Virus record (IMG/VR): IMGVR_UViG_3300036782_000053
Location: 1-41,216 of that record
Length of the DNA stretch: 41,216 nt
DNA from: a virus
Strand: one strand, 5' to 3'
Numbering within the stretch: the stretch's first letter is position 1; every line of letters starts with the position of its first letter. The notes below the pieces were generated by a model, which did not search any database, was not told the DNA's origin, and saw only the letters and a program-made list of their open reading frames with translations. The translations under genes were made by a program, and so were the position numbers. Shown here in pieces: positions 1 to 41,216 of the stretch.

Positions 1-127
1 TTAACGTTTTCATTAATGTTTTCATCTTCATCAACGTTAACATTACCATTAACATTGTTGTTAACGTTATTACCCTGTTCATCTTCACCACTTCTTGTAG
101 CACTTTCTCCAAATAAATCAGCTAATT
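1..127. repeat. Terminal overlap: bases 1-127 are identical to 41090-41216 (closure of a 41,089-bp circle, or terminal redundancy)
   Basis: Base-by-base comparison of the two window ends: ttaacgttttcattaatgttttcatc...ctccaaataaatcagctaatt is present at both. An ORF reads continuously across the junction. Confidence 0.95.
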
Positions 128-146
128 CGCGCTCCTTCAAAATCAT
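1..146 (-). CDS. 5' part of the ParG-like ribbon-helix-helix partition protein gene. Full gene = 146..1 joined to 41089..40852, 127 aa.
   Basis: ATG at 146, 4 nt after AAGGAG, overlapping the parA 3' end by 29 nt. Translation: MILKERELADLFGESATRSGEDEQGNNVNNNVNGNVNVDEDENINENVNEEENGNNNPKEPEVKKKANEDILELLKDNNDKKVVGFHLDKDVRDAFQKLLGKKPKRGDQSKIANKIFRDFFEERGLL. Missing from the ORF track because the window edge splits it. Confidence 0.65.
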   Translation of the reverse strand, partial: MILKERELADLFGESATRSGEDEQGNNVNNNVNGNVNVDEDENINENV

Positions 147-915
147 TCAGCTCCTTAAATAAATTCTTATAATAAAATGCAAATTCATTATCTTTTTTAG
201 TAAGTGTAAGTGGTAATTGGTTATAAGCAATCGAATTAGCAAATTGAATAGTTCTAGGGATATTAGCTTTAAAGAAGTGAATGCCTTCTTTCTCACAAAA
301 ACGACTTGCTTGTTTCATCGCTTCTGTATGAAGCTTAGTATTCTTTTGAACTAATGTAGCTACAACTCCAGTAATCTCTAAATTAGGATTATGTTTATTT
401 TTAAATTGACCAATTACATCGATTATTTTTATTAGTGATCGTACGGAATATTGTTCCGGTTGGAAAGGAATAATAATTTTATCCGTACAGCAAATTACAT
501 TACTTTGTATTAACCCTGAAGATGGTGGGCTATCAAATAAGATTACATCGTAATCGTCTTCCACAGACATTAACGCCACCTTTAAAAGTAAAAATGGATT
601 TATGTATTTATCTAAGTTAGGCAATATATCGAAATCTAAAAAGCTCATCATTTCATTAGACGGTAATACATCGATGTTCTCATGAACATTAACTATCGCT
701 TCACTTGCCGGTGCAAAATGAACTAAAACATCGTGCAATGTAGTACGATACTTGTCCGGATTCTTCCCGAAAGACAACAGTGAATTCCCTTGTTGGTCAG
801 CATCCACAATTAGAACACGTTTACCTTGTTTCGCATAAAGTCCAGCTAAATTTACAGTCATTGAAGACTTTAACACGCCGCCTTTATTCTGTACGAAAGC
901 TAATTTATAAGCCAT
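118..915 (-). CDS. parA: ParA/Soj-family partition ATPase (small type-Ib form, no N-terminal HTH)
   Basis: 265-aa ORF. Deviant Walker A NKGGVLKSS near the N terminus, plus VDADQQGN and LFDSPPS motifs. GGAGG 7 nt upstream of the ATG at 915. Confidence 0.9.
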   Translation of the reverse strand: MAYKLAFVQNKGGVLKSSMTVNLAGLYAKQGKRVLIVDADQQGNSLLSFGKNPDKYRTTLHDVLVHFAPASEAIVNVHENIDVLPSNEMMSFLDFDILPNLDKYINPFLLLKVALMSVEDDYDVILFDSPPSSGLIQSNVICCTDKIIIPFQPEQYSVRSLIKIIDVIGQFKNKHNPNLEITGVVATLVQKNTKLHTEAMKQASRFCEKEGIHFFKANIPRTIQFANSIAYNQLPLTLTKKDNEFAFYYKNLFKELNDFEGARIS

Positions 916-934
916 TCTGATACCTCCATTAAAT

Positions 935-1004
935 TTACATTAACAACAACGTTAACGTTTATATTAATAATTACATTAACGTTAATGATTATGTTTATAT
1001 TAAT
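935..1004. promoter_or_regulatory. par promoter region with two tandem ~35-bp modules carrying perfect palindromes (AACGTTAACGTT, ATTAACGTTAAT); candidate parS/operator
   Basis: TTACATTAACAACAACGTTAACGTTTATATTAATAA (935-970) followed by TTACATTAACGTTAATGATTATGTTTATATTAAT (971-1004), immediately upstream of parA. The second module recurs 30/34 at 40754-40787. Confidence 0.55.
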
Positions 1005-1097
1005 CTACTTTATCATACTTATTCTTTCATGCAATTGTTTTCCCTTTAAATCTTTTAAAAATACTTTCATTCGGGTATGTGAAATTTTAAGTTTAAA

Positions 1098-1122
1098 CAA
1101 AATAAAAAAGAGCCGAAGCTCT
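1098..1122 (-). terminator. Rho-independent terminator after the 46-aa ORF
   Basis: On the minus strand, AGAGC-TTCG-GCTCT followed by TTTTTTATTTT. The stem starts at the stop codon. Confidence 0.8.
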
Positions 1123-1262
1123 TATTTCGTTAAAGTATTAATTTGTTCTAAAAGTGCAATTGCCTGTGGATCACCGTTCTCCGCTTTTTCTAAGATGATA
1201 TGTAACTTGTCCTCCACAGTAATTTCATTCTCCATTTGTAATGCAGCCCCTTGATTCATCAT
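1122..1262 (-). CDS. 46-aa acidic small ORF in the AimX position, downstream of the receptor-peptide pair
   Basis: GGGAGG 9 nt upstream of ATGATG at 1262. Translation MMNQGAALQMENEITVEDKLHIILEKAENGDPQAIALLEQINTLTK. Followed directly by a strong terminator. Below the size cutoff of the ORF track. Confidence 0.5.
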   Translation of the reverse strand: MMNQGAALQMENEITVEDKLHIILEKAENGDPQAIALLEQINTLTK

Positions 1263-1411: not shown

Positions 1412-1540
1412 TTAACTGCCGCCCGGATCAACCATCATATACTTAACCGGGCTTGTCTGATCTACTTTATCAACATTTCCAAATACTCCGAATCCAAATG
1501 CCCCTACGCACATCATTAGTGCAACTAGTTTCTTTTTCAT
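1412..1540 (-). CDS. 42-aa secreted signalling pre-peptide (AimP/Phr-like)
   Basis: Its ATG overlaps the receptor stop codon (ATGA at 1537-1540). Translation MKKKLVALMMCVGAFGFGVFGNVDKVDQTSPVKYMMVDPGGS has a KKK n-region, a hydrophobic core and a polar C-terminal pro-region. Not in the ORF track. Confidence 0.7.
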   Translation of the reverse strand: MKKKLVALMMCVGAFGFGVFGNVDKVDQTSPVKYMMVDPGGS

Positions 1541-3060: not shown

Positions 3061-3163
3061 ATATTTATTTTTAATTTAGTTGTTTGGTGACTAAAAATCT
3101 ATAAACGTTAATAAAACGACTATTTGTAGTGGTGTGTGGAGGTACTGTTTATACTTATTTATT

Positions 3164-3508
3164 ATGATAATTTTTGGTAAAACTCTAAGACAATTGAGAA
3201 AATCGCGTGATCTAACACAAATTGAATTGGCTGAGATTTTAAATCTTAGTCAGAGCCAAATCAAAAATTGGGAAACAGGACGATTTCAGCCGGATATTGA
3301 AACTCTTTCTAATATGGCTTCCTTTTTCAACGTCTCATTAGACGTCCTTGTTGGCTTTTCAAACAATTTCGAAGATGAACCAATACAACAAGTCATTTCT
3401 GAAGCTAGGTCAACGTATGGGGCGTTAAACGAAGCTCAGAAAGAACGTTTTTGTAATCAGTTGTTATTGTTCATGAAAATGATAAAAGACAATCAAGGAA
3501 CGTTCTAA
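3164..3508 (+). CDS. XRE-family HTH transcriptional regulator (114 aa)
   Basis: MIIFGKTLRQLRKSRDLTQIELAEILNLSQSQIKNWETG is a classic XRE HTH N terminus. The start at ATG 3164 is preferred over the track start at 3134. No well-spaced RBS, so the start is uncertain. Confidence 0.8.
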   Translation: MIIFGKTLRQLRKSRDLTQIELAEILNLSQSQIKNWETGRFQPDIETLSNMASFFNVSLDVLVGFSNNFEDEPIQQVISEARSTYGALNEAQKERFCNQLLLFMKMIKDNQGTF

Positions 3509-3591: not shown

Positions 3592-4479
3592 TTAGCTCTC
3601 TTCTTTTCTGTTTTTACCTAGTAACTCAGCTAAACGTTTTTGGTTTTCTTCTATATCTTCAGTAGCTTGTCCATTGTCTTCCACAGTTACTACTTCATTA
3701 TCTTCTTTTAACCACTCAGGGGCCATTTCAGTACGTACATATTTAGAACCTGATACTTTTGCTTTACCTTGTCTTACTTTCTGTTTCTGGCCAAGCTTAG
3801 ACATCTTTTCTTCCACAACCTTTATGACATAGTTTTCAGCAGCAACTAGATCGGTAGTTCCGATTGCTTTGCATTTACTAGTAACATCATGAATTGCTTT
3901 AATAGTTTTTTGGTTTGTAATCTCTCGCTCTTTGATCTTTGAATTCATTAAATCAAGAATCATAGATTCAGTGACAGGGTTAGTTATAATTTCTTCTTCT
4001 TCTTTTTCTTTAATTAAGTCTTTTTTTATAATATCTTTCTTATCTCTTGGTTTTGAGGTCTTCATTTTGAGGTCTTGAAAATCAAGTCCCCAAATTTGAC
4101 CGTGTTCTTTTTCGGCATAAGCAAGAATCTCTTCACGTTCTTCAGCTGTGAATGGCTTGATACGATAGTAATATTCGTAGTCCCATTTCTTACCCACACG
4201 AAACTTATATTCAATGATGTAATTAGCATCCATTAATTCTTTCCATGCATTTTTTACAGATACTTCTTTATTCTTTCCATAACGTTTGTACAGTTCTGTT
4301 TTATGTAATTCCCATTCTTCAGTGTTGTAAGACCAAAGATTAACGATTAATCCTAATGCTTGTAATGAAAGACAACTTTCTGGATCATCATTATTTTTTC
4401 GCGTTTCAACTGCAACTGCTGTTTTGTTTGGTACTTCCACATATTCTTTTTCTAGTTTCCATTTTTTCATTTTAGCCAT
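3592..4479 (-). CDS. Putative plasmid/prophage replication initiator (winged-helix Rep or DnaD-like), 295 aa
   Basis: GGAGG RBS before ATG 4479 (MAKMKKWKLEKEY). The N-terminal half resembles RepA_N-type initiators of Firmicute plasmids (LSLQALGLIVNLWSY...VKNAWKELMDANYI). Charged low-complexity linker. Sits between the repressor and partition genes. Confidence 0.5.
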   Translation of the reverse strand: MAKMKKWKLEKEYVEVPNKTAVAVETRKNNDDPESCLSLQALGLIVNLWSYNTEEWELHKTELYKRYGKNKEVSVKNAWKELMDANYIIEYKFRVGKKWDYEYYYRIKPFTAEEREEILAYAEKEHGQIWGLDFQDLKMKTSKPRDKKDIIKKDLIKEKEEEEIITNPVTESMILDLMNSKIKEREITNQKTIKAIHDVTSKCKAIGTTDLVAAENYVIKVVEEKMSKLGQKQKVRQGKAKVSGSKYVRTEMAPEWLKEDNEVVTVEDNGQATEDIEENQKRLAELLGKNRKEES

Positions 4480-5255: not shown

Positions 5256-5272
5256 GTTGCGTAATTCGCAAC
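5256..5272. promoter_or_regulatory. Operator palindrome GTTGCG-TAATT-CGCAAC in the cI/cro divergent region
   Basis: Perfect 6-bp arms, overlapping TTGCGT ... TATAAA promoter-like elements reading toward cro. Confidence 0.6.
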
Positions 5273-5313
5273 TTTGTTATAAACTCGATTTATGAAAGAG
5301 GTGTTCATCGTTT

Positions 5314-5514
5314 ATGATTATCAATAACGAATTTCTTCGTGAAATTAGGAAGGAAAAGGGATTAACACAAACTCAAGTGGCTAAGTTACTTAACCTTGAT
5401 AAGACATCTATTTCAAAGTACGAATCAGGCATTCATTGTCCTAGCTTAAGAGTTCTTGTGTTATATTCAGAGACTTTCGATATAAATATTGAAAAGTTTC
5501 TCAGGCAAAGTTAA
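5314..5514 (+). CDS. Cro-like XRE-family HTH protein (66 aa)
   Basis: LREIRKEKGLTQTQVAKLLNLDKTSISKYESG. AAGAGGTG RBS. Divergent from the cI-like gene. Confidence 0.8.
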   Translation: MIINNEFLREIRKEKGLTQTQVAKLLNLDKTSISKYESGIHCPSLRVLVLYSETFDINIEKFLRQS

Positions 5515-5520
5515 TTTTTT

Positions 5521-5556
5521 TTGCAACAAGGTTGTGTAATTCGCAACAAGTTGTGT
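5521..5556. promoter_or_regulatory. Second operator cluster (GTTGTG-TAATT-CGCAAC plus flanking GCAAC/GTTG half-sites) downstream of cro
   Basis: ttGCAACaagGTTGTGTAATTCGCAACaaGTTGTGtg. The core at 5531-5547 differs from the 5256 operator by one base. Confidence 0.5.
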
Positions 5557-5872: not shown

Positions 5873-6490
5873 ATGAAACCTGATGAGTTGTTCGAAGAGA
5901 AACAACATCTAGTATTCTTTGCAATAAAAGATCAATTTGGAAGTTACGAAATAGCTAAATTAATAGCAGAAAGAAATAATATGGAAATGGAAGATTTAAT
6001 TCAAGTTGCTAAATTAACGCTGTGGGAATTGTGCTTAAAATACGATCCAGAAAAAGATACTGGGTTTAAAACATATGCATTAACACATATGAAATGGCGT
6101 ATGAGTGACGAAATACATGAAAGAGGAACAGCATTTAAAGTAACTCGTTGGACTAAGCCTGAAGAACGAAACAAAATCAATACAAGACCAATTGATTTAC
6201 ATGCAAATGGTGAAATTGTGGAGGGATTCTTTGCGGTATCCACAATAGATGTGGCGAAGGAAGCTATAGTGTCAGTTGAATTTCAGCAAGCATTGGATTT
6301 GTTAACAGATGAAGAAAGACTGATTTTAATCAGAAAATCACAAGGTTATACAGACAGTGAAATTTCTAATGAAATCGGAAAAACTAGACAAATCATTCAT
6401 AAGAAGAAGAAAAGAGCGTTTTTAAAAATCAATCCTGATTATAAAAGCGTAATACAAAAGAAAAACCACCTGCTCCAACAGGTGATCTAA
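5873..6490 (+). CDS. Sigma-70 family (ECF-like) RNA polymerase sigma factor
   Basis: Region 2-like DLIQVAKLTLWELCLKYDPEKDTGFKTYALTHMKWRMSDEI and region 4-like LTDEERLILIRKSQGYTDSEISNEIGKTRQIIHKKKKRAF. Confidence 0.8.
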   Translation: MKPDELFEEKQHLVFFAIKDQFGSYEIAKLIAERNNMEMEDLIQVAKLTLWELCLKYDPEKDTGFKTYALTHMKWRMSDEIHERGTAFKVTRWTKPEERNKINTRPIDLHANGEIVEGFFAVSTIDVAKEAIVSVEFQQALDLLTDEERLILIRKSQGYTDSEISNEIGKTRQIIHKKKKRAFLKINPDYKSVIQKKNHLLQQVI

Positions 6491-7419: not shown

Positions 7420-8112
7420 TTGGAAATCACAAACGGTGCTGCAATTACCAAAAGTAAAAAGGCAAAAATCATTATCTATTCAAAGCCAGGTAACGGTAAA
7501 ACAACGGTTGCTGGGTTGTTACCAGGTAAAACATTAGTCCTGGATATCGATGGGACAAGCCAAGTTTTAGAAGGATATGAAAATGTAGATGTAGCTAAGA
7601 TTGATGGAACTAATCCACATGATAGCATCTTACAGTTCTTCGGAATCGCAAAAGCGAGCATTGGTAAGTATGACAACATCTTTATCGATAACTTAACGCA
7701 TTATCAAAAGTTATGGCTGCTTAATAAAGGTGAAAAGACAAAAAGCGGTATGCCAGAATTAAAAGACTACGCTTTACTAGATAATCATCTTTTGAAATTA
7801 GTAGAAACATTTAATTCATTAGATGCAAATATCATTTTCACAGCTTGGGAAACAACAAGAAATATTACTCATGATGATGGTCAACAATACACGCAATTCG
7901 TTCCTGACATTAGGGATAAAATCGTCAATCACATTATGGGAATTGTTCATGTTGTTGGTCAATTAGTTAAAAAGGCAGATGGTACAAGAGGATTTGTTTT
8001 AGAAGGCAATCAAAGTATCTTCGCTAAGAACCATCTCGATGCGCGTCTCGGTTGCATACAAGAAGAATTAATAGTGTCATCCACAAATGAGAAAACAGGG
8101 GGAAATAAATAA
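7420..8112 (+). CDS. AAA_24/Sak4-like RecA-fold ATPase
   Basis: Walker A YSKPGNGKTT followed by LVLDIDGTS. AAAGGAG RBS before the TTG start. Typical partner of DUF669 and primase-helicase genes. Confidence 0.75.
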   Translation: MEITNGAAITKSKKAKIIIYSKPGNGKTTVAGLLPGKTLVLDIDGTSQVLEGYENVDVAKIDGTNPHDSILQFFGIAKASIGKYDNIFIDNLTHYQKLWLLNKGEKTKSGMPELKDYALLDNHLLKLVETFNSLDANIIFTAWETTRNITHDDGQQYTQFVPDIRDKIVNHIMGIVHVVGQLVKKADGTRGFVLEGNQSIFAKNHLDARLGCIQEELIVSSTNEKTGGNK

Positions 8113-8591
8113 TGTCATTCTTTAAATTCGATGAAACAAACGTAAGTAAAGGTTTTGAGGTAGTAGCAGAAGGGAAATATGAGGCCATTATTGTAAATGC
8201 AACAGCAAAATATTTTCAAGGTCATCCAACATTAGAGCTAGATTTCGAAATTCGTTCAGATGTTTCGCAACCATACCAAGGTGAAAAGGTTTTATATAAT
8301 ACATTCTATTTCCACAATGACAATCCTGAATATCAAGAAAATAATATTAAAAGGATTAACGGTTTGATTGCGGCTTGTAATTTTCCTGATGGAGTTTCAT
8401 TTGCAAGTGCTGAAGATATGGCAAAGCAGTTATTCAATAAATCATTATTAATCACGGTTAAACATCAAGAAGATAAAAAAGATAGTACTAAGAAATATCC
8501 TAAAGCTAGATTTTTCAATAAATCTAAAGTGGATTCTCCATCACCAGTTGGCGAACCAATTAATATTGGTGATGAATCACTCCCGTTCTAA
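8112..8591 (+). CDS. DUF669-like phage protein (putative ssDNA-binding)
   Basis: 159 aa. Conserved position after the Sak4-like ATPase. N-terminal EGKYEAIIVNA pattern. Confidence 0.55.
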   Translation: MSFFKFDETNVSKGFEVVAEGKYEAIIVNATAKYFQGHPTLELDFEIRSDVSQPYQGEKVLYNTFYFHNDNPEYQENNIKRINGLIAACNFPDGVSFASAEDMAKQLFNKSLLITVKHQEDKKDSTKKYPKARFFNKSKVDSPSPVGEPINIGDESLPF

Positions 8592-8611
8592 ATAGAATTA
8601 ACAATTTAATA

Positions 8612-8645
8612 GAGAGGTTGGTTTTAACCGACTTCTCTTTTTTAT
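8612..8645 (+). terminator. Rho-independent terminator
   Basis: AGAGAGGTTGG-TTTTAA-CCGACTTCTCT followed by TTTTTT. Confidence 0.8.
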
Positions 8646-33401: not shown

Positions 33402-35703
33402 TATCAACAAAACACAATACGCACAATTAAACTCCATTGTCACTGGAAGGGTCGGTGATAAAGCTAGTAATACCGTTGATGTATATGTTGTTGACGGTTT
33501 TATTCCATATAATCTAACTGGAAGTGACGTATATTTCGAATGTGCTAAACCTGACAATACTTCTGTTAGAGATAAGAACGGAATCACTATAATAGATGCA
33601 GCTAAAGGGCATTTCGAATATACATTCCCTACACAAACATTCGCATCTGTAGGAAAATCTAAACAAGCCTATTTTACAATAGAAAAAAATTCAACTGTAA
33701 AAGCTACAACTCAAGATTTCATCATTGTTTCATTGCCTGATGCATTAACCAATAGAATTCCTTCGAAAACTTATATTTCTCAATTAGATCAATTAATTGA
33801 AGAATTAAGAGAAATGGCATTACAAGACATCAATAGCAAAGCAGCACAAGAAGCACATGATGCGCTAGTTAAAGCACAAGACGCTAAAGCAATCGCGCAA
33901 AGCGTTCAAAATCAATTGAATACAATAGTTATAGAAGGTGATTCTTCAGTAGAAGCGGCACAAGCAAGGATCGAAAAAGATGGAACAGTTCATGAAACAT
34001 TAAAAGCACATACTGATGCTATCCATGATAAAATTGAGATTTTGAATAAAAAAGCAACTGAGATTAGCATAATGGAGTACGAAAATTTTGTTGTAAATAA
34101 GGATCTACCAGATGAAGATTGGAAACCAGCTTTAGACGAGGCGTTTCGAGTTGCAAACGGTAAAACATTAATTTTCCCTGACGGAATATATCAATCTAGT
34201 GCAGTTACATTACCGACAGGTTGGTCAGGAAAAGTTACAGGTAGAGGAATTTTAAAAGCTATTTCAAGTATGTCTATCAATTCACTTGTAACGCTAAATA
34301 AAGTTACAAATGTAACATGGGAAGTTAATATTGATATGGCTCAAAATATATTAACAACCAAGACTGACCCTCGTTGTTTAGTAGGAATAACTCTAACGGA
34401 TTGTCGTAGTACAAAAATAAATAATTGTACATGTACAAACGTTAGGGTAGGAAGACCGCTTATTATAGATGGTAACTCTAGTGTTAATCCTATTAGTACA
34501 GATGGTTCTCAAAATATAGAAGTTAATAATATGAGGTGTGTAGCTTACTCCTATGACATAGTTGATGAAGGAGCATACATTATAATTCGATCTAGTTTTT
34601 ATAACGGTGATGGTGGAGGTATTTATATGCCTGCATCTAACGGTTTGAAAAAATCTGATATGACAATTGATACTGTAGTAAGTTATAAACAAACGACAAA
34701 AAATGTGAAGTTTAATAACTGTTACTTTGAAAACTTTGATCGCATAGCGATTTTAAATGTTGATGGAATTGATTTTAACAATTGTACAGGCATCAATTTT
34801 TATACAAGGGGATATAATTTTTCACCAACCGTATTTAACGCAACAGTAAATGGTGGTTCGATAACTGGTGGTACAGCATCAACAATCCCTTTTGCATATG
34901 GTTGTAAAAATTGTGTAGTTAACGGCGTACGCATAGATAGTTTAGGTGGAACTGCAGGAGAACAGACTGCATTAAAAGCGTATTACGGTTGTTCTGATAT
35001 TATTTTTTCTAATATTACAGGTATTGGTGGTTCTCAACGTCATATTTATGTGCATTCTAGTAAACGTATTAAATTTTCAAATGTAAACTTAAGAAAACAT
35101 ATCAATGGTACAGTTAATAGCATTAGTGTAAGCGGAGGAGACAAAGGAAACATCGCTACGTATTCTGTGGATGATATTACGATAGATAACTGTACTCTTG
35201 AATCAAATTACGGAATCGCACTTAATGAATTTACAGGAAATGCTACTATTTCATTAGGAGCAGTTAAAATTTCAAAAAGTGCATTTGAAAAATCCCATCA
35301 ATTATTCAATGCAAGCTACACATTACCTGCAAAAGGTGAAGTTGTTTTTTTGTTCAACACTGCGAAAAAATCAGGAAATACGCAAGATTTATCGTCAAAT
35401 ATGTTTAAGTATTTTGATGGTAATGATGTAAGTTGCAATATGGTTTCTCAAAAAAATATGACAGGACCTACAACATTTGTTGAATTTGATATACAGTACT
35501 ATGTTCCCGAACGAGATGGATCTGGTGGAGACAATACAAGAAACCCTACTATCGATGTATACAAAAACGGGCAAATATTATTTTATGGAATTGATTATTT
35601 TTGTGATGGTACAATGGCCGGCACAATGACTAATAAAATTCGTATGTATACTCCTTCATCATTGGTAAACGGAGATAAATTGACACTTATTAGAAGAAAA
35701 TAA
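33379..35703 (+). CDS. Receptor-binding tailspike: BppU-like N-terminal anchor plus right-handed parallel beta-helix (pectate-lyase-like) domain
   Basis: N-terminal VTGRVGDKASNTVDVYVVDG...YFECAKPD. Central coiled coil. Repeated NNC/NxT rungs (INNCTCTNVRVG, FNNCYFENF, FNNCTGINF, CKNCVVNGVRI, ITIDNCTLESN). Confidence 0.75.
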   Translation: MKTRLILDINKTQYAQLNSIVTGRVGDKASNTVDVYVVDGFIPYNLTGSDVYFECAKPDNTSVRDKNGITIIDAAKGHFEYTFPTQTFASVGKSKQAYFTIEKNSTVKATTQDFIIVSLPDALTNRIPSKTYISQLDQLIEELREMALQDINSKAAQEAHDALVKAQDAKAIAQSVQNQLNTIVIEGDSSVEAAQARIEKDGTVHETLKAHTDAIHDKIEILNKKATEISIMEYENFVVNKDLPDEDWKPALDEAFRVANGKTLIFPDGIYQSSAVTLPTGWSGKVTGRGILKAISSMSINSLVTLNKVTNVTWEVNIDMAQNILTTKTDPRCLVGITLTDCRSTKINNCTCTNVRVGRPLIIDGNSSVNPISTDGSQNIEVNNMRCVAYSYDIVDEGAYIIIRSSFYNGDGGGIYMPASNGLKKSDMTIDTVVSYKQTTKNVKFNNCYFENFDRIAILNVDGIDFNNCTGINFYTRGYNFSPTVFNATVNGGSITGGTASTIPFAYGCKNCVVNGVRIDSLGGTAGEQTALKAYYGCSDIIFSNITGIGGSQRHIYVHSSKRIKFSNVNLRKHINGTVNSISVSGGDKGNIATYSVDDITIDNCTLESNYGIALNEFTGNATISLGAVKISKSAFEKSHQLFNASYTLPAKGEVVFLFNTAKKSGNTQDLSSNMFKYFDGNDVSCNMVSQKNMTGPTTFVEFDIQYYVPERDGSGGDNTRNPTIDVYKNGQILFYGIDYFCDGTMAGTMTNKIRMYTPSSLVNGDKLTLIRRK

Positions 35704-35821: not shown

Positions 35822-36901
35822 ATGAATAAAAATCTTACGATTCACGGATTAAGAGGACTAGCTGCTATTTTAGTTGTTTTTTATCATATTTATGGAATGG
35901 CTTATATAGGTGGTTTTTTTAGAGAAAGGACAGTAGAAGGCGCTTTTAGGATTTATCATAATTTTGGGCCCATGGGGGTTAACATATTCTTTATGATTAG
36001 TGGGTTTCTGATTATAGGAAGTCTATCAAGACATGTTGAGATAAAGAAATTTATGATTAACAGAATCATAAGAATTTACCCTGTGTTCTTATGTTTACAC
36101 CTTGTTGTTTTTCTATTCGGACCATTTATCAACTACGAATGGTTAGGAAACGTGAACCTGAGAGAGTACATTTTAGGTTTTATTTCAAACATTTTTTTAT
36201 TGCCAGGAATGTTTGATTTGCCAATAGCTCAAAAAAACGCATGGTCTTTAAGTTATGAATTTACTTTTTATATTGTATCTTCAATGTTTTTCTTTGTTAT
36301 ATTCAAAGCTAAAAATAACATCCTTAGAGTTTCAGGAATAATAATTCTTTCATTTATCTCTTTAACTATAATTTATAATCATCACACAGCTGTTTTCTTT
36401 GCACTAGGAGCGTTAGTTTATTATTCTTATAATCATATTAATTTTAGATATGTGTATAAACGATATTATGCATTAAACGGTGTCATTTTATTGACATTAA
36501 CATTTCTTTTGTATGATTCCAATAATAATCTTGCTATTTTACCATTAATTTTTAGCACACTGTTATTCTGGGTAGCTGTAAATGAAGAAGGATTACTATC
36601 AAACATTTTAAGAAATAAAGTTTTTCAATACTTAGGTACAATTAGTTACAGCCTTTATCTAATTCATCCATTTGCAATGTTTCCTTTAAAAGTTATATTC
36701 AGTTCTGGAAAGATGAAAAATTTGATTAACAATGAGTATCTAAGTATTATTCTCTTTGGAATAGCTAGTTTAATTTTAGCAATTATAGCAGCTCACATAT
36801 CACATCGTTTAATAGAGGTCTGGTTCACAAATAAAATAAAGCGTTCGTTCCAAAAAACATATAAATCTAAACCAACTGATATTAATACTAGAGTTTCATA
36901 A
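35822..36901 (+). CDS. Acyltransferase-3 family integral membrane O-acyltransferase (OafA/Oac-like)
   Basis: HGLRGLAAILVVFYH N-terminal motif and about 10 hydrophobic segments. Own TATAAT element and AAAAGGAG RBS. Own terminator. Confidence 0.8.
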   Translation: MNKNLTIHGLRGLAAILVVFYHIYGMAYIGGFFRERTVEGAFRIYHNFGPMGVNIFFMISGFLIIGSLSRHVEIKKFMINRIIRIYPVFLCLHLVVFLFGPFINYEWLGNVNLREYILGFISNIFLLPGMFDLPIAQKNAWSLSYEFTFYIVSSMFFFVIFKAKNNILRVSGIIILSFISLTIIYNHHTAVFFALGALVYYSYNHINFRYVYKRYYALNGVILLTLTFLLYDSNNNLAILPLIFSTLLFWVAVNEEGLLSNILRNKVFQYLGTISYSLYLIHPFAMFPLKVIFSSGKMKNLINNEYLSIILFGIASLILAIIAAHISHRLIEVWFTNKIKRSFQKTYKSKPTDINTRVS

Positions 36902-37005: not shown

Positions 37006-37431
37006 ATGGATCGTATTGATGTATTAATGAAAACATTCATAGCTACTTTCGGTGGTTTTTGCGGGTATTTCTTGGGTGGGTGGGATACAACATTGAGGGT
37101 TCTACTAATCATGGCAGCTATCGACTATATCACAGGAGTATTCGCTGCGGGATTCAATGGGGAATTAAAAAGTAAAGTGGGATTCAAAGGCATCGCCAAA
37201 AAGGTGGTGCTTTTTCTTTTGGTCGGAGCAGCTACTCAAGCTGATGCAGCCATAGGGACAAATAGTGCTATTCGTGAAGCAACAATCTTTTTCTTTATTG
37301 GGAATGAGCTGCTTTCACTCTTAGAAAATGCTGGTCGCATGGGAATTCCCCTTCCACAAGCTTTGACAAACGCAGTTGAAGTTTTGGGCGGTAAACAAAA
37401 ACAAGAAGAGAAAAAAGGAGATGTTCAATAA
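37006..37431 (+). CDS. Holin (phage_holin_4 / TcdE-like family)
   Basis: 141 aa with 3 TM-like segments. DYITGVFAAGFNGELKSKVGFKGIAKK motif. Immediately upstream of the endolysin gene. Confidence 0.8.
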   Translation: MDRIDVLMKTFIATFGGFCGYFLGGWDTTLRVLLIMAAIDYITGVFAAGFNGELKSKVGFKGIAKKVVLFLLVGAATQADAAIGTNSAIREATIFFFIGNELLSLLENAGRMGIPLPQALTNAVEVLGGKQKQEEKKGDVQ

Positions 37432-38198
37432 TGGGTAAATTCGCAGGTTCAGGTGGTCACAATAGTATTGTACAAGGCGCAAATAGTGTTTATGGGAAAG
37501 AACATGTGGAGGATAGAAAATTTCTTGATGCTGTTGCTAAGTATGTACAAGCAGCAGGGTGGAAATATGTGAACTGTTCAGATGAAGTTGGAACAACAAA
37601 AACCGCAGTTTGGAGCAATGCAGCAAATAATCATTTACGCGTGAAAGATAGCGATGTAGATACACAGTTTCATTTAAACGCAACTCCAGGAGGTACAGGT
37701 TGTGAGGTTTGGCTACATCCTGAATATGGCAACAGGGAATTAGCAGCGGCAATTTCAAAAGCCATGGCTGATGCGTTTGGATTAAGAGATCGAGGAATCA
37801 AATTTTCTACTGAGTTAGGGTGGATTAATAAAACAAAAACAGGATTACTTCCTGAAATTTGCTTTATCGATAATGAAGTGGATATGCAAAAATACCGTGA
37901 TAACTTTGATAAAGCCGCTAAAGCGGTAGCTGAAGTTATTGTGGGTAGAGCTATTCAAAATGGAGGTGGCAACGTGAATAATGGTGGCTATCAGTATGTT
38001 AAATCCGGTGGTTTCGGTGTTTCGATGACTCAAGAAGTTCTAAATGCTATGAACGATCGTGGAACTAAAGGGAAAGTTGTTTCTGATCCATTAACTGGCC
38101 TAGCGTACTTACAAACTGAAGTATTGCCGAACGGTGAACTTGATAAGATTACAGCTTGGATGGATGAAAGAAACTGGTGGTACGAATATATTAAATAA
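37431..38198 (+). CDS. Endolysin: N-acetylmuramoyl-L-alanine amidase (Amidase_3-like) with a C-terminal cell-wall-binding domain
   Basis: GSGGHNS...GKEHVEDRKF...EICFIDNEVD pattern. ATGA overlap with the holin gene. C-terminal ~70-aa W/Y-rich domain. Confidence 0.8.
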   Translation: MGKFAGSGGHNSIVQGANSVYGKEHVEDRKFLDAVAKYVQAAGWKYVNCSDEVGTTKTAVWSNAANNHLRVKDSDVDTQFHLNATPGGTGCEVWLHPEYGNRELAAAISKAMADAFGLRDRGIKFSTELGWINKTKTGLLPEICFIDNEVDMQKYRDNFDKAAKAVAEVIVGRAIQNGGGNVNNGGYQYVKSGGFGVSMTQEVLNAMNDRGTKGKVVSDPLTGLAYLQTEVLPNGELDKITAWMDERNWWYEYIK

Positions 38199-38236: not shown

Positions 38237-38476
38237 TTACATCCAAAAATCATGTTCATCTATATTCTTACCTAACTTTTTTAATCCCTTAACAATTTGA
38301 ATTATCGTTGAAAACTTCGGTCTATATTTTTTATCATTACACACTTTAGAAATTGTCGCTGTACTTAGTTTCGATGTTCTTTCTAATTCAATTTGTGCTA
38401 TTCCATTCCGATCAAGATAGTGACCAAATTTTGTGCGTTTTTTCCCCAATCCAAACACGTTTATCACCTCATCCAC
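38237..38476 (-). CDS. XRE-like HTH regulator (73-79 aa)
   Basis: FGHYLDRNGIAQIELERTSKLSTATISKVCND HTH. Alternative GTG start at 38458 after GAGGTG. Divergent from the FtsK-like operon. Confidence 0.7.
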   Translation of the reverse strand: MDEVINVFGLGKKRTKFGHYLDRNGIAQIELERTSKLSTATISKVCNDKKYRPKFSTIIQIVKGLKKLGKNIDEHDFWM

Positions 38477-38547
38477 ATCTTGACCTATTTCTTACTTTTT
38501 TAAACTAATGCAAAAAAATAAGAAATTGTCCAAGCTGTACACCATAT

Positions 38548-38697
38548 GCTTTATCAAGGTCGCTACCAAAGTAGCTATCAAACTTGTTATCAAAGCAGCT
38601 ACCAAAGTAAATAGCTTAATCGCTATCAAGGTAACTAGTATTTGTACTATCAAAGTAGCTATCAAGTTAGCTATCAAAGTAATACTATCAAGGTATT
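38548..38697. repeat. Array of about 12 phased 12-bp direct repeats, consensus GCTATCAAAGTA (iteron/centromere-like)
   Basis: TATCAA or TACCAA cores at 38552, 38564, 38576, 38588, 38600, (38612 degenerate), 38624, (38636 degenerate), 38648, 38660 and 38672, then 38686. Exact 12-bp phasing for 11 units. Confidence 0.85.
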
Positions 38698-38757
38698 AGG
38701 GCGATAAACCTATGTATCATCAGGATTTTAAATTCTGTTTATAAAGGGGAGTTTTAT

Positions 38758-38952
38758 ATGTTAACAACATTTATTTCATTGGGAGTTTTAGGAGCAACAA
38801 CAATTGGTGGGGCGATATTAGAAAAGCATCTTGTAAAAAATGATCACGTTGCAGCAGCTAAACTTTTAAGTGATGGAATGTATCACGGAATGAGGATAGG
38901 TGGAGTTTGTTTCATTGGTTATGTGTTTATCAAAATCTTAATCATGTTCTAG
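38758..38952 (+). CDS. Small two-TM membrane protein (64 aa)
   Basis: AAAGGGGAG RBS. Hydrophobic N- and C-terminal segments. First gene of the FtsK-like operon. Confidence 0.6.
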   Translation: MLTTFISLGVLGATTIGGAILEKHLVKNDHVAAAKLLSDGMYHGMRIGGVCFIGYVFIKILIMF

Positions 38953-38962
38953 GAGGTGTCGC

Positions 38963-40129
38963 ATGGGAATCATCAAAGAATGGCTTCATAAACAAAGTTT
39001 AAAGAATCAACTTATAGAGGTATTTGGAAAAGCAGGTTTATACGTGGACCATCAAACAAGGGGTGGCAAAGTTCCAATTTATCCAAAGATACATGCCATT
39101 TCCTCCACACAAGGAAGTGTTAGATATATATTCACCATTCCAAATGGTTTGGATCCTAAGACCATCGAAAAGAAATGGTTTTGTTTTCAACAAATATTAG
39201 GTCGTAATGTAGCGATTGAGGGCGATATTAAAAAGTTTGTACTAAATGTATTTCATTCAGATGCAGGACTAAAACAATACAACTACAGTTATAAGAAGTG
39301 GCAGCCGTTACTAAAACAACATCGTCTTCCTATTGTGGTGGGTCGTGACCAATTAGGCAATATGATTGTGTACGATATGGTTGAAGCCAATACACCACAT
39401 TTGCTGATAGCAGGAGAAACAGGTAGTGGTAAAAGTAGTATGGTACGTGTTGTTCTGTCCACACTTATTCAATGCATGTCACCTGATAAATTACATTTGT
39501 ACTTAGGAGACTTAAAGAACTCTGAATTTCATTTCTTGCGAAGAGTGAAACACGTAAAAGAAGTGTGCATGGAAGAAATCGAAATGAAGATAATGTTGCA
39601 GAAAGTGTGGAAGGAAATACGCGAACGTAGAAAGTTGATGGAAGAGTATGAAGTGGATCATATTGATGAATATAACAAATTGAATCCCGATAATCAGAAA
39701 CCATATATTTTATTAGCGATCGATGAAGTAGCAATGCTGCAAGATGAAAAAGAATGTATGACTACAATTGAAAAGATTTCAGCAGTCGGCCGATCACTGG
39801 GGGTGTTTCTTATGCTTAGTATGCAACGACCAGATGCAAAAGTATTAGATGGTAAGTTAAAGCTCAATATGACAGTAAGAATGGGCTTTAAATGTGATAG
39901 TACGATTAATAGCAATATCATGGGTACACCTGGTTCAGAACACTTGGAGAAATCAGGCCAAATGATGTTAAAACTAAATGGATTAAAGAAAGTGCAAGCT
40001 CCTTATTTAGAATTAAGTAAGGCGAAACAGATTGTTGAACCATATCGCATACCAAAAGAGGATATAACGCTTCATATTCCTCCACAAGAAGAGATTCCAT
40101 TGTTCGGGGTGTTAGAAGATGAGGAATAG
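38963..40129 (+). CDS. FtsK/SpoIIIE-family DNA translocase-like ATPase (motor domain only)
   Basis: Walker A AGETGSGKSS, Walker B LLAIDEVAML, SMQRP motif. AGGAGG RBS. Confidence 0.85.
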   Translation: MGIIKEWLHKQSLKNQLIEVFGKAGLYVDHQTRGGKVPIYPKIHAISSTQGSVRYIFTIPNGLDPKTIEKKWFCFQQILGRNVAIEGDIKKFVLNVFHSDAGLKQYNYSYKKWQPLLKQHRLPIVVGRDQLGNMIVYDMVEANTPHLLIAGETGSGKSSMVRVVLSTLIQCMSPDKLHLYLGDLKNSEFHFLRRVKHVKEVCMEEIEMKIMLQKVWKEIRERRKLMEEYEVDHIDEYNKLNPDNQKPYILLAIDEVAMLQDEKECMTTIEKISAVGRSLGVFLMLSMQRPDAKVLDGKLKLNMTVRMGFKCDSTINSNIMGTPGSEHLEKSGQMMLKLNGLKKVQAPYLELSKAKQIVEPYRIPKEDITLHIPPQEEIPLFGVLEDEE

Positions 40130-40727
40130 AGATAAAGCGATACTAAGTGATTTGAGCCGTTTCAGATGTATGTCTCGTGATGATATTATAGATTTACATT
40201 TTCATGGAGTGAAAAACGCAGTTACTTGCTGTAATACAGTGATGAAACGATTAAGAAGAGATGGTCATGTGGATGCCAATATTTCGCAGCAGCCATTTAT
40301 ATATTTCCCTCAACCTAGTACACTTCGTAAAACTAGCCAAAAGATTCCCCACTTCCTCGGTATTGTGGACGTATACAAACAGCTTATACATTATGAAAAA
40401 CCTAAACTATTTAGAGTTGAACCGAAATACGGAAAAGATTATATGGAGCCCGATGCATTTACAATATGGCGTAGATCTCCATTCTTTATTGAAGTCCAGA
40501 AGTCGGTTTACAGTAAAAAGATTATGCAAGATAAAATAGACAGGTATGAATTATACTTCCACAGTCAAGAATGGCATAGTGAGTCCTGGCAACCGAAAGA
40601 CTCTAAATTTTTTCCATCGATTTTAATAATTACTGAAAAGAAATACGACTTAAATTCCTCCAATTTGCGTATCTTTCAAGCGACATCTATACATGATTTC
40701 ATGGATACATTAGCGGTTAAATCCTAA
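40119..40727 (+). CDS. Replication-relaxation family protein
   Basis: 202 aa. N-terminal winged-helix-like ILSDLSRFRCMSRDDIIDLHF...VMKRLRRDGHV. Overlaps the FtsK-like gene by 11 nt. Confidence 0.65.
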   Translation: MRNRDKAILSDLSRFRCMSRDDIIDLHFHGVKNAVTCCNTVMKRLRRDGHVDANISQQPFIYFPQPSTLRKTSQKIPHFLGIVDVYKQLIHYEKPKLFRVEPKYGKDYMEPDAFTIWRRSPFFIEVQKSVYSKKIMQDKIDRYELYFHSQEWHSESWQPKDSKFFPSILIITEKKYDLNSSNLRIFQATSIHDFMDTLAVKS

Positions 40728-40730
40728 GAA

Positions 40731-40755
40731 AACCCTACTTAGTCGTGGGGTTTTT
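40731..40755 (+). terminator. Terminator after the replication-relaxation gene
   Basis: AACCCTAC-TTAGTC-GTGGGGTT followed by TTT. Confidence 0.7.
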
Positions 40756-40822
40756 ACATTAACGTTAATATTAATGTTTATATTAACAATAACATTTACA
40801 TTATTTTTAACGTAATCATTAA
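40754..40822. repeat. Second set of par-type modules downstream of the ParG-like gene
   Basis: TTACATTAACGTTAATATTAATGTTTATATTAAC (40754-40787) matches 971-1004 at 30/34 positions. A degenerate second copy TTACATTATTTTTAACGTAATCATTAAC follows at 40795-40822. Confidence 0.6.
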
Positions 40823-40851
40823 CAAAAATAAAAGCCCTACAAATGTAGGAC

Positions 40852-41216
40852 TTATAATAAACCTCGTTCTTCAAAGAAATCACGGAATATTTTATTTGCA
40901 ATTTTTGATTGATCTCCGCGTTTTGGTTTTTTACCTAATAGCTTTTGAAAAGCATCACGAACATCTTTATCTAAATGAAATCCTACAACTTTTTTATCAT
41001 TGTTGTCTTTTAATAATTCGAGGATATCTTCATTTGCTTTCTTTTTAACTTCTGGCTCTTTTGGATTATTGTTACCATTTTCTTCTTCATTAACGTTTTC
41101 ATTAATGTTTTCATCTTCATCAACGTTAACATTACCATTAACATTGTTGTTAACGTTATTACCCTGTTCATCTTCACCACTTCTTGTAGCACTTTCTCCA
41201 AATAAATCAGCTAATT
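40852..41216 (-). CDS. ParG-like ribbon-helix-helix partition protein, 3' part (gene truncated by the window edge; first 19 nt are at 146..128)
   Basis: Translated codon by codon with no stop from 41216 down to TAA (40852-40854). The C-terminal KKVVGFHLDKDVRDAFQKLLGKKPKRGDQSKIANKIFRDFFEERG fits a beta-strand/helix/helix RHH layout. The N-terminal half is an N/V/D/E low-complexity tail. Confidence 0.65.
   Translation of the reverse strand, partial: LADLFGESATRSGEDEQGNNVNNNVNGNVNVDEDENINENVNEEENGNNNPKEPEVKKKANEDILELLKDNNDKKVVGFHLDKDVRDAFQKLLGKKPKRGDQSKIANKIFRDFFEERGLL
41090..41216. repeat. Second copy of the 127-bp terminal overlap (identical to 1-127)
   Basis: See the first feature. Confidence 0.95.

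What the first reader, a model, noticed from the sequence alone, without database searches (positions are those of the whole stretch)
1..41216. Closed 41,089-bp phage genome with partition and Rep genes but no integrase: a plasmid-prophage with two separate replication modules
Seen in the sequence:
- The two window ends share an identical 127 bp, and an ORF reads through the junction.
- None of the listed ORFs, nor the small ORFs I translated by hand, has tyrosine or serine recombinase or transposase features.
- The element does carry ParA plus an RHH ParG-like protein (junction to 915), a Rep-like initiator (3592-4479) and an iteron-like array (38548-38697).
- It also has a complete phage replication set (Sak4-like ATPase, DUF669-like protein, primase-helicase, AT-rich iteron region at 11016-11325) and a full HK97-type virion and lysis module.

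Inference: lysogeny is extrachromosomal, using Rep and Par for low-copy maintenance and the primase-helicase origin for lytic growth. The cos-like region at ~18.2 kb suggests the 127-bp overlap is an assembly closure rather than a physical terminal repeat.
Basis: partly seen in the sequence, partly recalled or inferred. Interest (0 to 1): 0.6.

Follow-up and report, generated by a model that had tools for sequence, protein, structure and literature searches.

The report
Bacillus cereus plasmid-prophage, known family

Summary

**What was confirmed**
- The two ends are identical over exactly 127 bp. A 127-aa ORF crosses the junction.
- An independent Logan contig matches the closed 41,089-bp circle base for base across that junction.
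- Six-frame HMM searches for tyrosine and serine recombinases, telomere resolvase and three transposase families found nothing.
- ParA, the AAA_24/DUF669/primase-helicase set, the HNH-TerS-TerL module, the HK97-type virion genes and the lysis genes are all confirmed.

**What it is**
- The closest relatives are closed circular plasmids of about 41 kb from complete B. cereus-group genomes, with the same gene order.
- Three of them (pl41, pBT1850042, p.6) are "Group 6" of the putative plasmid prophages of Piligrimova et al. 2021. The window is therefore a new member of a known kind.

- The 295-aa "Rep" has only weak initiator signals, namely a winged helix plus a C-terminal domain like that of Bacillus DnaB. 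Its relatives sit almost only on plasmids.
- The "RHH" label could not be verified by any model.
- The 12-bp array belongs to an optional FtsK/replication-relaxation cassette, not to Rep.

The parts
1..127 (.). Copy 1 of the 127-bp terminal overlap (identical to 41090-41216); assembly closure of a 41,089-bp circle
   Evidence: Exact identity at length 127 only. An independent Logan contig runs through the junction with a single copy.
41090..41216 (.). Copy 2 of the 127-bp overlap
40852..41216 (-). C-terminal 120 codons of the 127-aa partition adaptor candidate ('ParG-like'); the first 7 codons lie at 146-126 after closure
   Evidence: ORF across the junction. The family alignment shows a conserved N-terminal R..ADLFG.SA.R motif, an N/V/E-rich linker and a near-invariant 50-aa C-terminus. 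No RHH model matched.
118..915 (-). ParA-Ib-type partition ATPase, no N-terminal HTH
   Evidence: AAA_31 5e-40, CbiA 3e-22; NCBIfam ParA/SopA/PrgP-type hits
927..1004 (.). Centromere-like hexamer/12-bp repeats (ACATTA/ACGTTA words) upstream of parA
   Evidence: Repeat finders. 80% match to 40753-40803. The same arrangement flanks the par operon of NZ_CP085508.1.
40753..40827 (.). Second centromere-like repeat block, downstream of the adaptor gene
1122..1262 (-). 46-aa ORF in the AimX position, followed by a terminator at 1123-1108
   Evidence: small ORFs are annotated at the same place in relatives
1412..1540 (-). aimP: 42-aa secreted pre-peptide ending MMVDPGGS; its start overlaps the aimR stop (ATGA)
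   Evidence: the C-terminus resembles the RBClin15 AimP tail MMVDPGGGGW quoted in PMC11526630
1537..2667 (-). aimR, arbitrium lysis-lysogeny peptide receptor
   Evidence: NCBIfam lysogeny_AimR 2.9e-93, above cut-off; Pfam AimR 2e-22
3134..3508 (+). XRE-family HTH regulator (relatives start at the equivalent of 3164); a single LexA-box-like GAAC-N4-GTTC lies at 3048-3059 upstream
   Evidence: HTH_3 9e-17. The box occurs once in the window; 29 of 100 shuffles have at least one.
3592..4479 (-). 295-aa candidate plasmid-type replication initiator: N-terminal winged helix plus a C-terminal domain like that of Bacillus DnaB/DnaD
   Evidence: phrog_27492 (unknown function) 5e-112; 'replication protein' phrog_25863 2.6e-8. 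Bacillus DnaB C-terminus 2e-4. Profile against PDB 29km_A (DnaB) 1.2e-4. AF2 winged helix at residues 35-130, pLDDT about 80. 34 plasmid records against 2 partial phage hits.
4807..5127 (-). CI-like XRE repressor candidate, divergent from the cro-like gene
   Evidence: HTH_3 5e-15
5256..5547 (.). Switch region with 17-bp palindromic operators at 5256-5272 and 5531-5547, around the cro-like HTH gene (5314-5514, +)
   Evidence: 0 of 100 shuffles reach 3 matches; HTH_3 3e-17
5873..6490 (+). Sigma-70/ECF-type sigma factor at the head of the early operon
7420..11015 (+). Phage replication module: AAA_24 (Sak4-type) ATPase 7420-8112, DUF669 8112-8591, primase-polymerase/D5-type helicase 8673-11015
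   Evidence: 85.6% nt identity to the same module of the integrase-bearing phage Wrath
11016..11325 (.). AT-rich non-coding block with clustered AATAAC/GTTATT words and an (AT)n run: candidate origin of the primase-helicase module
   Evidence: The word cluster is conserved after the primase gene in pl41, NZ_CP068721.1 and Wrath.
11326..16935 (+). Early/middle genes: two YopX genes, ERCC4 nuclease 12496-13059, glutaredoxin, dUTPase 14153-14647, ThyX 14951-15709, sigma/ArpU-like late regulator 16483-16935
17267..17294 (+). Weak dif-like 28-mer: perfect XerD-type arm, 4 mismatches in the other arm
   Evidence: Not significant alone, but better dif-like sites lie at the homologous locus in pl41, NZ_CP085508.1 and NZ_CP120960.1.
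17381..20577 (+). Packaging module: HNH endonuclease 17381-17746, ORF 17857-18183, non-coding 18184-18476 (candidate cos region), TerS (Terminase_4/P27) 18477-18926, TerL 18895-20577
   Evidence: The nearest TerL relatives include Listeria phage PSA-type phages whose records begin just before terS. The cos position is inferred.
20594..35703 (+). Virion module: portal, ClpP-type protease, HK97-type major head protein, connectors, major tail protein, tape measure 26253-30095, Dit, tail-spike 30759-33401, BppU 33379-35703
35822..36901 (+). Acyltransferase_3 membrane protein (moron between tail and lysis genes)
   Evidence: PF01757 1e-32
37006..38198 (+). Holin 37006-37431 and PlyG-type amidase endolysin 37431-38198
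38237..40727 (.). Optional accessory cassette: XRE regulator 38237-38476 (-), 12-bp array 38552-38681, 64-aa ORF 38758-38952, FtsK/SpoIIIE-like ATPase 38963-40129, replication-relaxation protein 40119-40727 (+)
   Evidence: The cassette travels as a block of about 2.5 kb at 86-88% identity in many Bacillus plasmids of 52-250 kb and in phages. The array is conserved in L005 and L006. The cassette is absent from NZ_CP068721.1 and NZ_CP103780.1.

Best explanation
The window is the complete 41,089-bp genome of a temperate siphophage of the Bacillus cereus group, closed by a 127-bp assembler overlap. It most likely lysogenises as a low-copy circular plasmid rather than by integration.

Shown:
- It has a type-Ib partition cassette: parA, an overlapping small adaptor gene, and matching repeat blocks on both sides.
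- It has an arbitrium AimR/AimP decision circuit and a CI/Cro-type switch.
- It has no recombinase.
- Its relatives are deposited as closed circular plasmids.

Inferred:
- In the plasmid state, the minus-strand lysogeny genes are expressed: repressor, the 295-aa winged-helix / DnaB-C-terminus-like protein, AimR/AimP and ParA/adaptor. The 295-aa protein would recruit the host replisome at an origin that is still unidentified, and the Par system would segregate the copies.
- On induction, the plus-strand early operon fires the AAA_24/DUF669/primase-helicase module at the AT-rich word cluster at 11016-11325.
- DNA is then cut at a cos site just upstream of terS by the HNH-TerS-TerL machine and packed into HK97-type heads.
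- The FtsK/replication-relaxation cassette with its 12-bp array is an optional accessory, not the core replicon.
For: - Closure. The closed plasmid NZ_CP085508.1 is collinear through the junction; its record coordinates 32238-32352 are shared by the matches to both window ends.
- No recombinase or transposase.
- Relatives: closed circular plasmids of 40.9-42.1 kb with the same order of lysogeny, early, late and lysis genes.
- pl41, pBT1850042 and p.6 are the Group 6 putative plasmid prophages of PMC8026635.
- The maintenance slot between the replication-relaxation gene and aimR holds ParA+adaptor here, ParM+adaptor in pl41, and an integrase in phage phiCM3.
- The primase module is shared with the integrase phage Wrath, which has no par, Rep-like or FtsK genes.
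- The Rep-like protein is kept, whole or as its C-domain, in every family member examined, including the two without the FtsK cassette. It is found in 34 plasmid records and only as 2 partial hits in 50,697 phage records.
- It has weak but repeated similarity to the C-terminal domain of Bacillus DnaB.
- Homologues of both the Rep-like and adaptor proteins lie mostly on contigs of 40-55 kb.
Against: - There is no direct evidence of the physical state of this element. Read mapping was impossible, and the record is a virus contig whose source sample type I could not establish.
- The Rep-like assignment is weak: no Pfam hit, Foldseek E about 1, pLDDT 61. No iterons were found beside the gene.
- The adaptor's RHH fold is unverified.
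- One close relative sits inside a 665-kb draft contig. There the 41-kb circle is bounded by 64-66-bp exact repeats shared with another phage, which fits an assembly traversal or a cointegrate rather than att sites.
- The published family status is itself 'putative'; nobody has shown induction or a plasmid state for Group 6.
Confidence: 0.78

Rival explanations
1. There is only one replicon. The primase-helicase module with its AT-rich origin drives both plasmid-state and lytic replication. The 295-aa protein is a DNA-binding regulator or replisome-organiser helper, not a separate initiator.
For: - The protein has no Pfam family and no significant fold match.
- There are no iterons next to it; the upstream region looks like a promoter with a palindromic operator.
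- The primase module is present in every family member.
Against: - The same primase module serves an integrase-type phage that lacks the 295-aa gene.
- The 295-aa family is almost confined to plasmid records, and its domains shuffle as in initiators.
- It matches the C-terminal domain of Bacillus DnaB in two independent searches.
- It lies on the lysogeny strand.
Confidence: 0.3
2. The FtsK/SpoIIIE-like ATPase, the replication-relaxation protein and the 12-bp array form the plasmid-mode replicon (or its origin). This is what the literature loosely implies when it lists Replic_Relax among 'plasmid replication-related proteins'.
For: - PHROG 2190 is labelled 'replication initiation protein' and matches at 1e-57; Pfam Replic_Relax matches.
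- A conserved phased 12-bp array lies upstream.
- The cassette is widespread on Bacillus plasmids.
- PMC8026635 lists it with the Par proteins.
Against: - Two closed plasmids of the same family (NZ_CP068721.1, NZ_CP103780.1) have no such cassette.
- The cassette is also present in integrase-carrying phages such as phiCM3.
- It sits after the lysis genes as a self-contained divergent unit.
Confidence: 0.12
3. The element can integrate without its own integrase, either by host XerCD-type recombination at a dif-like site (as IMEX elements do) or by homologous recombination with resident prophages. On this reading the plasmid form is only one state.
For: - dif-like 28-mers with 1-2 arm mismatches to the B. 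cereus-group dif lie upstream of the HNH gene in pl41, NZ_CP085508.1 and NZ_CP120960.1. A weaker one lies at window 17267-17294.
- A relative is embedded in a 665-kb contig between 64-66-bp repeats.
Against: - The window's own site is no better than 7 of 40 shuffles.
- Three family members have no such site.
- Every complete-genome relative examined is a separate circular replicon.
- The 665-kb case looks like one full circle traversed through a short repeat shared with another phage.
Confidence: 0.07
4. The 127 bp is a true direct terminal repeat of a linear virion genome whose ends lie at window position 1.
For: - IMG/VR classes the record as 'direct terminal repeats'.
- An assembler would collapse a true repeat in the same way.
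Against: - The length is exactly 127, a usual largest assembler k-mer (my own knowledge).
- The position falls inside the partition adaptor gene.
- Closed plasmids are collinear across it.
- The packaging genes are of the HNH/P27-TerS/TerL kind, and their relatives include phages recalled as cos phages (knowledge).
Confidence: 0.03

Closest known systems
Group 6 putative plasmid prophages of B. cereus sensu lato (pl41 NZ_CP031074.1, pBT1850042 NZ_CP014287.1, p.6 NZ_CP032613.1; Piligrimova et al. 2021, PMC8026635), plus later closed plasmids NZ_CP120960.1, NZ_CP085508.1, NZ_CP068721.1, NZ_CP103780.1
   Same: - Size of 40.9-42.1 kb (p.6 is 48.8 kb; the paper attributes this to a 6.9-kb repeat) and circular.
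- The same order of genes: par, aimR/aimP, HTH, 295-aa protein, HTH switch, sigma, AAA_24, DUF669, primase, nucleotide-metabolism genes, HNH-TerS-TerL, HK97-type virion, lysis.
- No integrase annotated.
- 75-89% nt identity over 34-70% of each window half.
- The 295-aa protein is 86-88% identical in seven of them.
   Different: - Mosaic cassettes differ: this element has ParA plus a 127-aa adaptor most like that of NZ_CP085508.1, while pl41 and NZ_CP068721.1 carry ParM.
- The tail-spike/BppU region, the acyltransferase moron and the endolysin type differ.
- No record covers 80% or more of either window half.
Bacillus phage vB_BtS_B83 (experimentally shown circular plasmid prophage with an arbitrium system; PMC6669507, Table 1 of PMC8026635)
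   Same: - A B. cereus-group temperate siphophage maintained as a circular plasmid.
- An arbitrium switch.
- A partition motor plus a small adaptor.
   Different: B83 is about 50 kb, packages by headful, uses a ParM-like motor and encodes two Xer-family recombinases. The window has ParA-Ib, no recombinase and a cos-type packaging set.
Bacillus phage vB_Btc-RBClin15 (PMC11526630)
   Same: - A putative parABS system with repeat blocks on both sides of the par genes.
- An arbitrium pair whose AimP ends in MMVDPGG...
- An FtsK/SpoIIIE and replication-relaxation operon.
- A RepA-like gene.
- It was deposited as a plasmid.
   Different: RBClin15 also encodes a recombinase and DnaD/DnaC-type replication genes. 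No long nucleotide match to the window was seen.
Phage Wrath (KX534340.1) and phiCM3 (NC_023599.1): integrase-type relatives
   Same: - Wrath shares the AAA_24/DUF669/primase-helicase module at 85.6% identity.
- phiCM3 shares the lysis, FtsK and replication-relaxation block at 79% identity.
   Different: Both carry an integrase where the window carries partition genes. Neither has the 295-aa protein.
TP228 ParF/ParG-type (type Ib) partition systems
   Same: - A small Walker ATPase without an HTH.
- A small downstream adaptor with a flexible N-terminal part bearing a conserved arginine motif.
- Repeat blocks near the operon.
   Different: There is no detectable sequence or fold match of the adaptor to ParG or any RHH family. 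The repeat blocks flank the operon on both sides and recur inside the adaptor's coding region.

Membership tests
Group 6 B. cereus s.l. putative plasmid prophages (PMC8026635) | Nucleotide and gene-order similarity to pl41 / pBT1850042 / p.6 | tested here: met
   All three are among the best plasmid hits, at 77-89% identity over 34-70% of each window half. The gene tables are collinear. The plasmid names were confirmed.
Group 6 B. cereus s.l. putative plasmid prophages (PMC8026635) | Siphovirus-type tail genes, terminase and major capsid protein present | tested here: met
Group 6 B. cereus s.l. putative plasmid prophages (PMC8026635) | Partition motor (ParA-Ib or ParM) plus small adaptor; Replic_Relax protein; primase-polymerase; dUTPase | tested here: met
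   ParA, adaptor ORF, Replic_Relax, NrS-1-type primase-polymerase/D5_N, dUTPase_2 and ThyX
Plasmid prophage (phage-plasmid) in the strict sense | Prophage physically extrachromosomal in a lysogen | not testable with these tools
The only support is that relatives are separate circular replicons in complete genomes.
Plasmid prophage (phage-plasmid) in the strict sense | No integration machinery | tested here: met
   Seven recombinase/transposase HMMs in six frames gave no match at E<=10.
Plasmid prophage (phage-plasmid) in the strict sense | Inducible, producing infective virions | not testable with these tools
   The gene set looks complete and unbroken, but function is untested.
Type Ib ParA/ParG-like partition system | Walker-type ParA without an N-terminal HTH domain | tested here: met
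   The protein is 265 aa and the AAA_31 match starts at residue 5.
Type Ib ParA/ParG-like partition system | Ribbon-helix-helix centromere-binding adaptor | tested here: inconclusive
   No HMM, PDB-sequence or Foldseek match. The AF2 model (pLDDT 53) gives two C-terminal helices after the conserved VVGFHL segment, which is compatible with RHH but is not proof.
Type Ib ParA/ParG-like partition system | Centromere repeats bound by the adaptor | tested here: inconclusive
   Matching repeat blocks flank the operon here and in NZ_CP085508.1. Binding was not tested.
Arbitrium (AimR/AimP) system | AimR receptor above the family cut-off, with a downstream secreted pre-peptide gene | tested here: met
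   NCBIfam lysogeny_AimR scores 312.8 bits against a cut-off of 70. A 42-aa ORF with a signal-peptide-like N-terminus overlaps the aimR stop.
DnaD/DnaB (DDBH2)-domain replication initiators of Firmicute phages and plasmids | Significant match to a DnaD/DnaB_2 domain model | tested here: inconclusive
   No Pfam hit at E<=0.01. NCBIfam Bacillus DnaB gives E 2e-4, far below its cut-off. The family profile against PDB DnaB gives E 1.2e-4 over the C-terminal 150 residues. Foldseek lists DnaB 5wtn and RTP only at E about 1.
DnaD/DnaB (DDBH2)-domain replication initiators of Firmicute phages and plasmids | Adjacent or internal origin with iterons | tested here: not met
   The conserved upstream region has a terminator and a palindromic operator-like site but no tandem iterons. 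Inside the gene there are only short low-copy repeats.
cos-packaging HK97-like phages with an HNH partner | An HNH endonuclease gene next to TerS (Terminase_4/P27) and TerL, then portal, ClpP-type protease and HK97-type capsid | tested here: met
cos-packaging HK97-like phages with an HNH partner | Defined cohesive ends | not testable with these tools
   This needs virion DNA or read-end pile-ups. TerL relatives include PSA-type phages, which I recall as having 3' cohesive ends (own knowledge, not checked).

The most novel reading that the evidence does not exclude
The 295-aa protein (variable winged-helix N-domain, conserved DnaB-C-terminus-like domain, no Pfam family) could be the founding member of an undescribed initiator family. 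It would give B. cereus-group phages a plasmid lifestyle, sitting beside a fixed 'maintenance slot' in which integrase, ParA/adaptor and ParM/adaptor cassettes are exchanged. In this recombinase-less lineage, multimer resolution would be handed to the host Xer system through dif-like sites upstream of the late operon, possibly helped by the element's own FtsK-like ATPase.
Probability: 0.25. Interest if true: 0.5.

Novelty: new member of a known kind. Interest (0 to 1): 0.3.

Why it matters
- It adds one more complete genome to a family of B. cereus-group phage-plasmids that has been described only in silico.
- It gives a clean comparative argument for which modules go with which lifestyle. The primase module is shared with integrase phages. 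The par cassette and the 295-aa protein go with the plasmid state. The FtsK/replication-relaxation cassette is optional.
- That makes the replicon question testable with three small cloning experiments in a laboratory B. thuringiensis strain.
- It does not change current understanding. Plasmid prophages with arbitrium and Par systems are already known in this group.

Tried and rejected
- Scan of one genome per species for the Rep-like protein: the first alignment was too divergent, and the second found no relative.
- Foldseek of the Rep-like model gave nothing below E about 0.9. Foldseek of the adaptor model gave no match at all.
- Pfam scan of all 32 adaptor homologues at E<=5 gave only noise.
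I walked the contig with four protein look-ups instead. I rejected it as evidence of site-specific integration, because one full 41-kb circle is bounded by 64-66-bp exact repeats shared with a second phage.
- Search for iterons next to the Rep-like gene found none.
- dif-like site: kept only as a lead. The window's copy is within the range of shuffles, and three relatives have none.
- LexA box: there is a single site, and 29% of shuffles have one.
- The B450 phage paper (41,205-bp genome) turned out to be unrelated.

Full report
**1. Closure**

- The window's first and last 127 bases are identical, and no other overlap length matches. The database holds it as a virus record classed 'direct terminal repeats', 100% complete.
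- After removing one copy, the circle is 41,089 bp. A 127-aa minus-strand ORF runs from 146 through the junction to 40852 and overlaps parA (118-915) by 29 nt.
- The same 127-aa protein, and the identical 295-aa protein of 3592-4479, occur on a 15,087-bp contig of an independent Logan assembly of run SRR11833494. The 11,257 bp fetched from that contig match the circularised window without a mismatch, from 39,979 across the junction to about 10,146.
- The closed plasmid NZ_CP085508.1 is also collinear across the junction.
- This shows the joined form exists. It does not by itself exclude a collapsed true terminal repeat. Several things make assembly closure by far the better reading:
  - The overlap length is exactly 127.
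  - It lies inside a gene.
  - The packaging genes are HNH, P27-type TerS and TerL.
  - TerL relatives include PSA-type phages whose records start just before terS.

**2. What the element encodes**

Minus strand (lysogeny side):
- ParA (AAA_31 5e-40).
- The 127-aa adaptor candidate.
- AimR (NCBIfam 2.9e-93, well above cut-off).
- A 42-aa AimP pre-peptide whose ATG overlaps the aimR stop.
- A 46-aa ORF with a terminator in the AimX position.
- The 295-aa protein.
- A CI-like XRE repressor.

Plus strand:
- A Cro-like HTH gene between two 17-bp palindromes.
- A sigma factor.
- AAA_24, DUF669 and a 780-aa primase-polymerase/D5 helicase.
- YopX, ERCC4, glutaredoxin, dUTPase and ThyX.
- A sigma/ArpU-like late regulator.
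- HNH, TerS, TerL, portal, ClpP-type protease and major head protein.
- Connectors, major tail protein, tape measure, Dit, tail-spike and BppU.
- An acyltransferase_3 moron.
- Holin and a PlyG-type amidase.

After lysis comes a divergent unit:
- An XRE regulator.
- A 12-bp array of about 10.8 copies at 38552-38681.
- A 64-aa ORF.
- An FtsK/SpoIIIE-like ATPase.
- A replication-relaxation protein.

**3. No integration machinery**

Six-frame searches with Phage_integrase, Resolvase, Recombinase, ResT/TelK, rve, DDE_Tnp_1 and IS110 models found nothing at E<=10, while the control genomes gave hits. Every ORF large enough to be a recombinase is assigned to another function.

**4. Relatives and the literature**

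- The best matches are not phage records but closed circular plasmids of 40.9-42.1 kb from complete B. cereus, B. thuringiensis, B. mycoides and B. toyonensis genomes. They show 75-89% identity over 34-70% of each window half and the same gene order.
- Three of them (pl41, pBT1850042, p.6) are Group 6 of Piligrimova et al. 2021. That paper describes them as putative active plasmid prophages with a Replic_Relax protein, a ParA-Ib ATPase and an RHH protein (or ParM in pl41), a replication initiator, a primase-polymerase, a dUTPase and a thymidylate synthase.
- B83 (a proven plasmid prophage with arbitrium) and RBClin15 (parABS, arbitrium, FtsK and replication-relaxation operon, RepA-like gene) show that each ingredient is already described in this host group.
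- The finding is therefore a new member of a known, though experimentally unproven, kind.

**5. Which module does what**

Comparison across relatives is informative.

- (a) Phage Wrath has an integrase and a LexA-like repressor. It shares only the AAA_24/DUF669/primase block with the window, at 85.6% identity. The AT-rich word cluster after the primase gene is kept in Wrath, pl41 and NZ_CP068721.1. This module is therefore the phage's own replication module, and 11016-11325 is its likely origin. No other 310-bp window of the genome holds more AATAAC/GTTATT words, and its GC is 26.8%.
- (b) The slot between the replication-relaxation gene and aimR holds ParA+adaptor here, ParM+adaptor in pl41, and an integrase in phiCM3. 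NZ_CP068721.1 also carries ParM with a small adaptor gene, although it lacks the FtsK cassette.
- (c) The FtsK/replication-relaxation cassette with its array moves as a block of about 2.5 kb among plasmids of 52-250 kb and among integrase phages. It is missing from two closed plasmids of this family. It cannot be the essential replicon, and the array is its own control or binding site, not Rep's iterons.
- (d) The 295-aa protein, or its C-terminal domain joined to another N-domain, is present in every family member examined. It is found in 34 plasmid records and only as two short partial hits among 50,697 phage records. Its homologues sit on contigs of at most 90 kb.
  - Its AlphaFold model has a confident winged helix at residues 35-130 and a helical C-domain.
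  - The C-domain matches the C-terminal domain of Bacillus DnaB, the helicase-loading protein, at E about 1e-4 in two independent searches. It also matches a 'replication protein' PHROG at 2.6e-8.
  - This makes a plasmid-type initiator the most likely role, at roughly 50-55%. It falls short of membership in any defined family, and I found no origin for it.

**6. Partition system**

- ParA is clear. The adaptor family has three parts: a conserved N-terminal arginine motif, a low-complexity N/V/E-rich linker, and an almost invariant C-terminal 50 residues.
- No RHH or ParG model, PDB sequence or fold matched. The label remains an inference from position and pattern.
- Blocks of ACATTA/ACGTTA-type repeats lie upstream of parA (927-1004) and downstream of the adaptor gene (40753-40827). 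Related words also fill the linker-coding part of the adaptor gene. NZ_CP085508.1 has the same layout.

**7. A possible counter-example, checked**

- One close relative lies at about 586-627 kb of a 665-kb draft contig. Walking the contig and comparing the pieces showed one complete circle of about 41 kb inserted into a second, different phage genome.
- The two boundaries are marked by exact shared segments of 64-66 bp just after the dUTPase genes.
- This is what an assembler produces when it traverses a circular replicon through a short repeat, or what a homologous cointegrate would look like. It is not an att-type junction.

**8. Lead noticed on the way**

- Using the B. cereus-group dif sequence from Kono et al. 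2011, I found dif-like 28-mers with only 1-2 arm mismatches in pl41, NZ_CP085508.1 and NZ_CP120960.1. All three lie in the intergenic region upstream of the HNH gene.
- The window has a weaker copy at the equivalent place (17267-17294), with one perfect arm. Taken alone it is within chance, and three relatives have none.
- If real, such sites could let the host Xer system resolve plasmid multimers in a lineage without its own recombinase.

**9. Limits**

- The cos site, the plasmid origin, adaptor binding and inducibility are all inferred.

Noticed in passing
window 17267-17294; L017 (pl41) 8243; L004 14737; L005 37893: dif-like 28-mers resembling the B. cereus-group chromosomal dif sit upstream of the HNH/terminase operon in three relatives (1-2 arm mismatches). 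The window has a weaker copy in the opposite orientation. Three other relatives have none.
   Followed up: partly
L010-L014 (GCA_007677365.1 VECM01000002.1, about 583-641 kb): A close relative appears as one full 41-kb circle embedded in another phage genome near the end of a 665-kb draft contig. It is bounded by 64-66-bp exact repeats after the dUTPase genes. This is likely an assembly traversal or a cointegrate.
   Followed up: yes
window 1412-2667 and 1122-1262: An arbitrium pair, aimR and a 42-aa aimP ending MMVDPGGS, with an overlapping stop/start. A 46-aa ORF with a terminator follows in the AimX position.
   Followed up: partly
window 3048-3059: A single LexA-box-like GAAC-N4-GTTC lies upstream of the extra XRE regulator gene. 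It occurs once in the window, and 29% of shuffles have at least one.
   Followed up: partly
window 35822-36901: An acyltransferase_3 membrane protein lies between the tail and lysis genes. It is a possible surface-modifying moron and is absent from the relatives' gene tables read at that position.
   Followed up: no
window 41072-41216 / 1-127: The linker-coding part of the adaptor gene is built from the same ATTAAC/GTTAAC words as the flanking centromere-like repeats. The assembler's closure point therefore falls in repetitive DNA.
   Followed up: partly
L019 (NZ_CP103780.1) 3991-5740: In this relative the Rep slot holds two ORFs (227 and 347 aa). Only the C-terminal domain of the 347-aa protein matches the window's 295-aa protein. 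This is domain swapping at the initiator candidate.
   Followed up: no
window 4470-4815: The non-coding region upstream of the 295-aa gene is unusually conserved across six family members (87% column identity). It holds a terminator and a GATACT-N5-AGTATC palindrome.
   Followed up: partly
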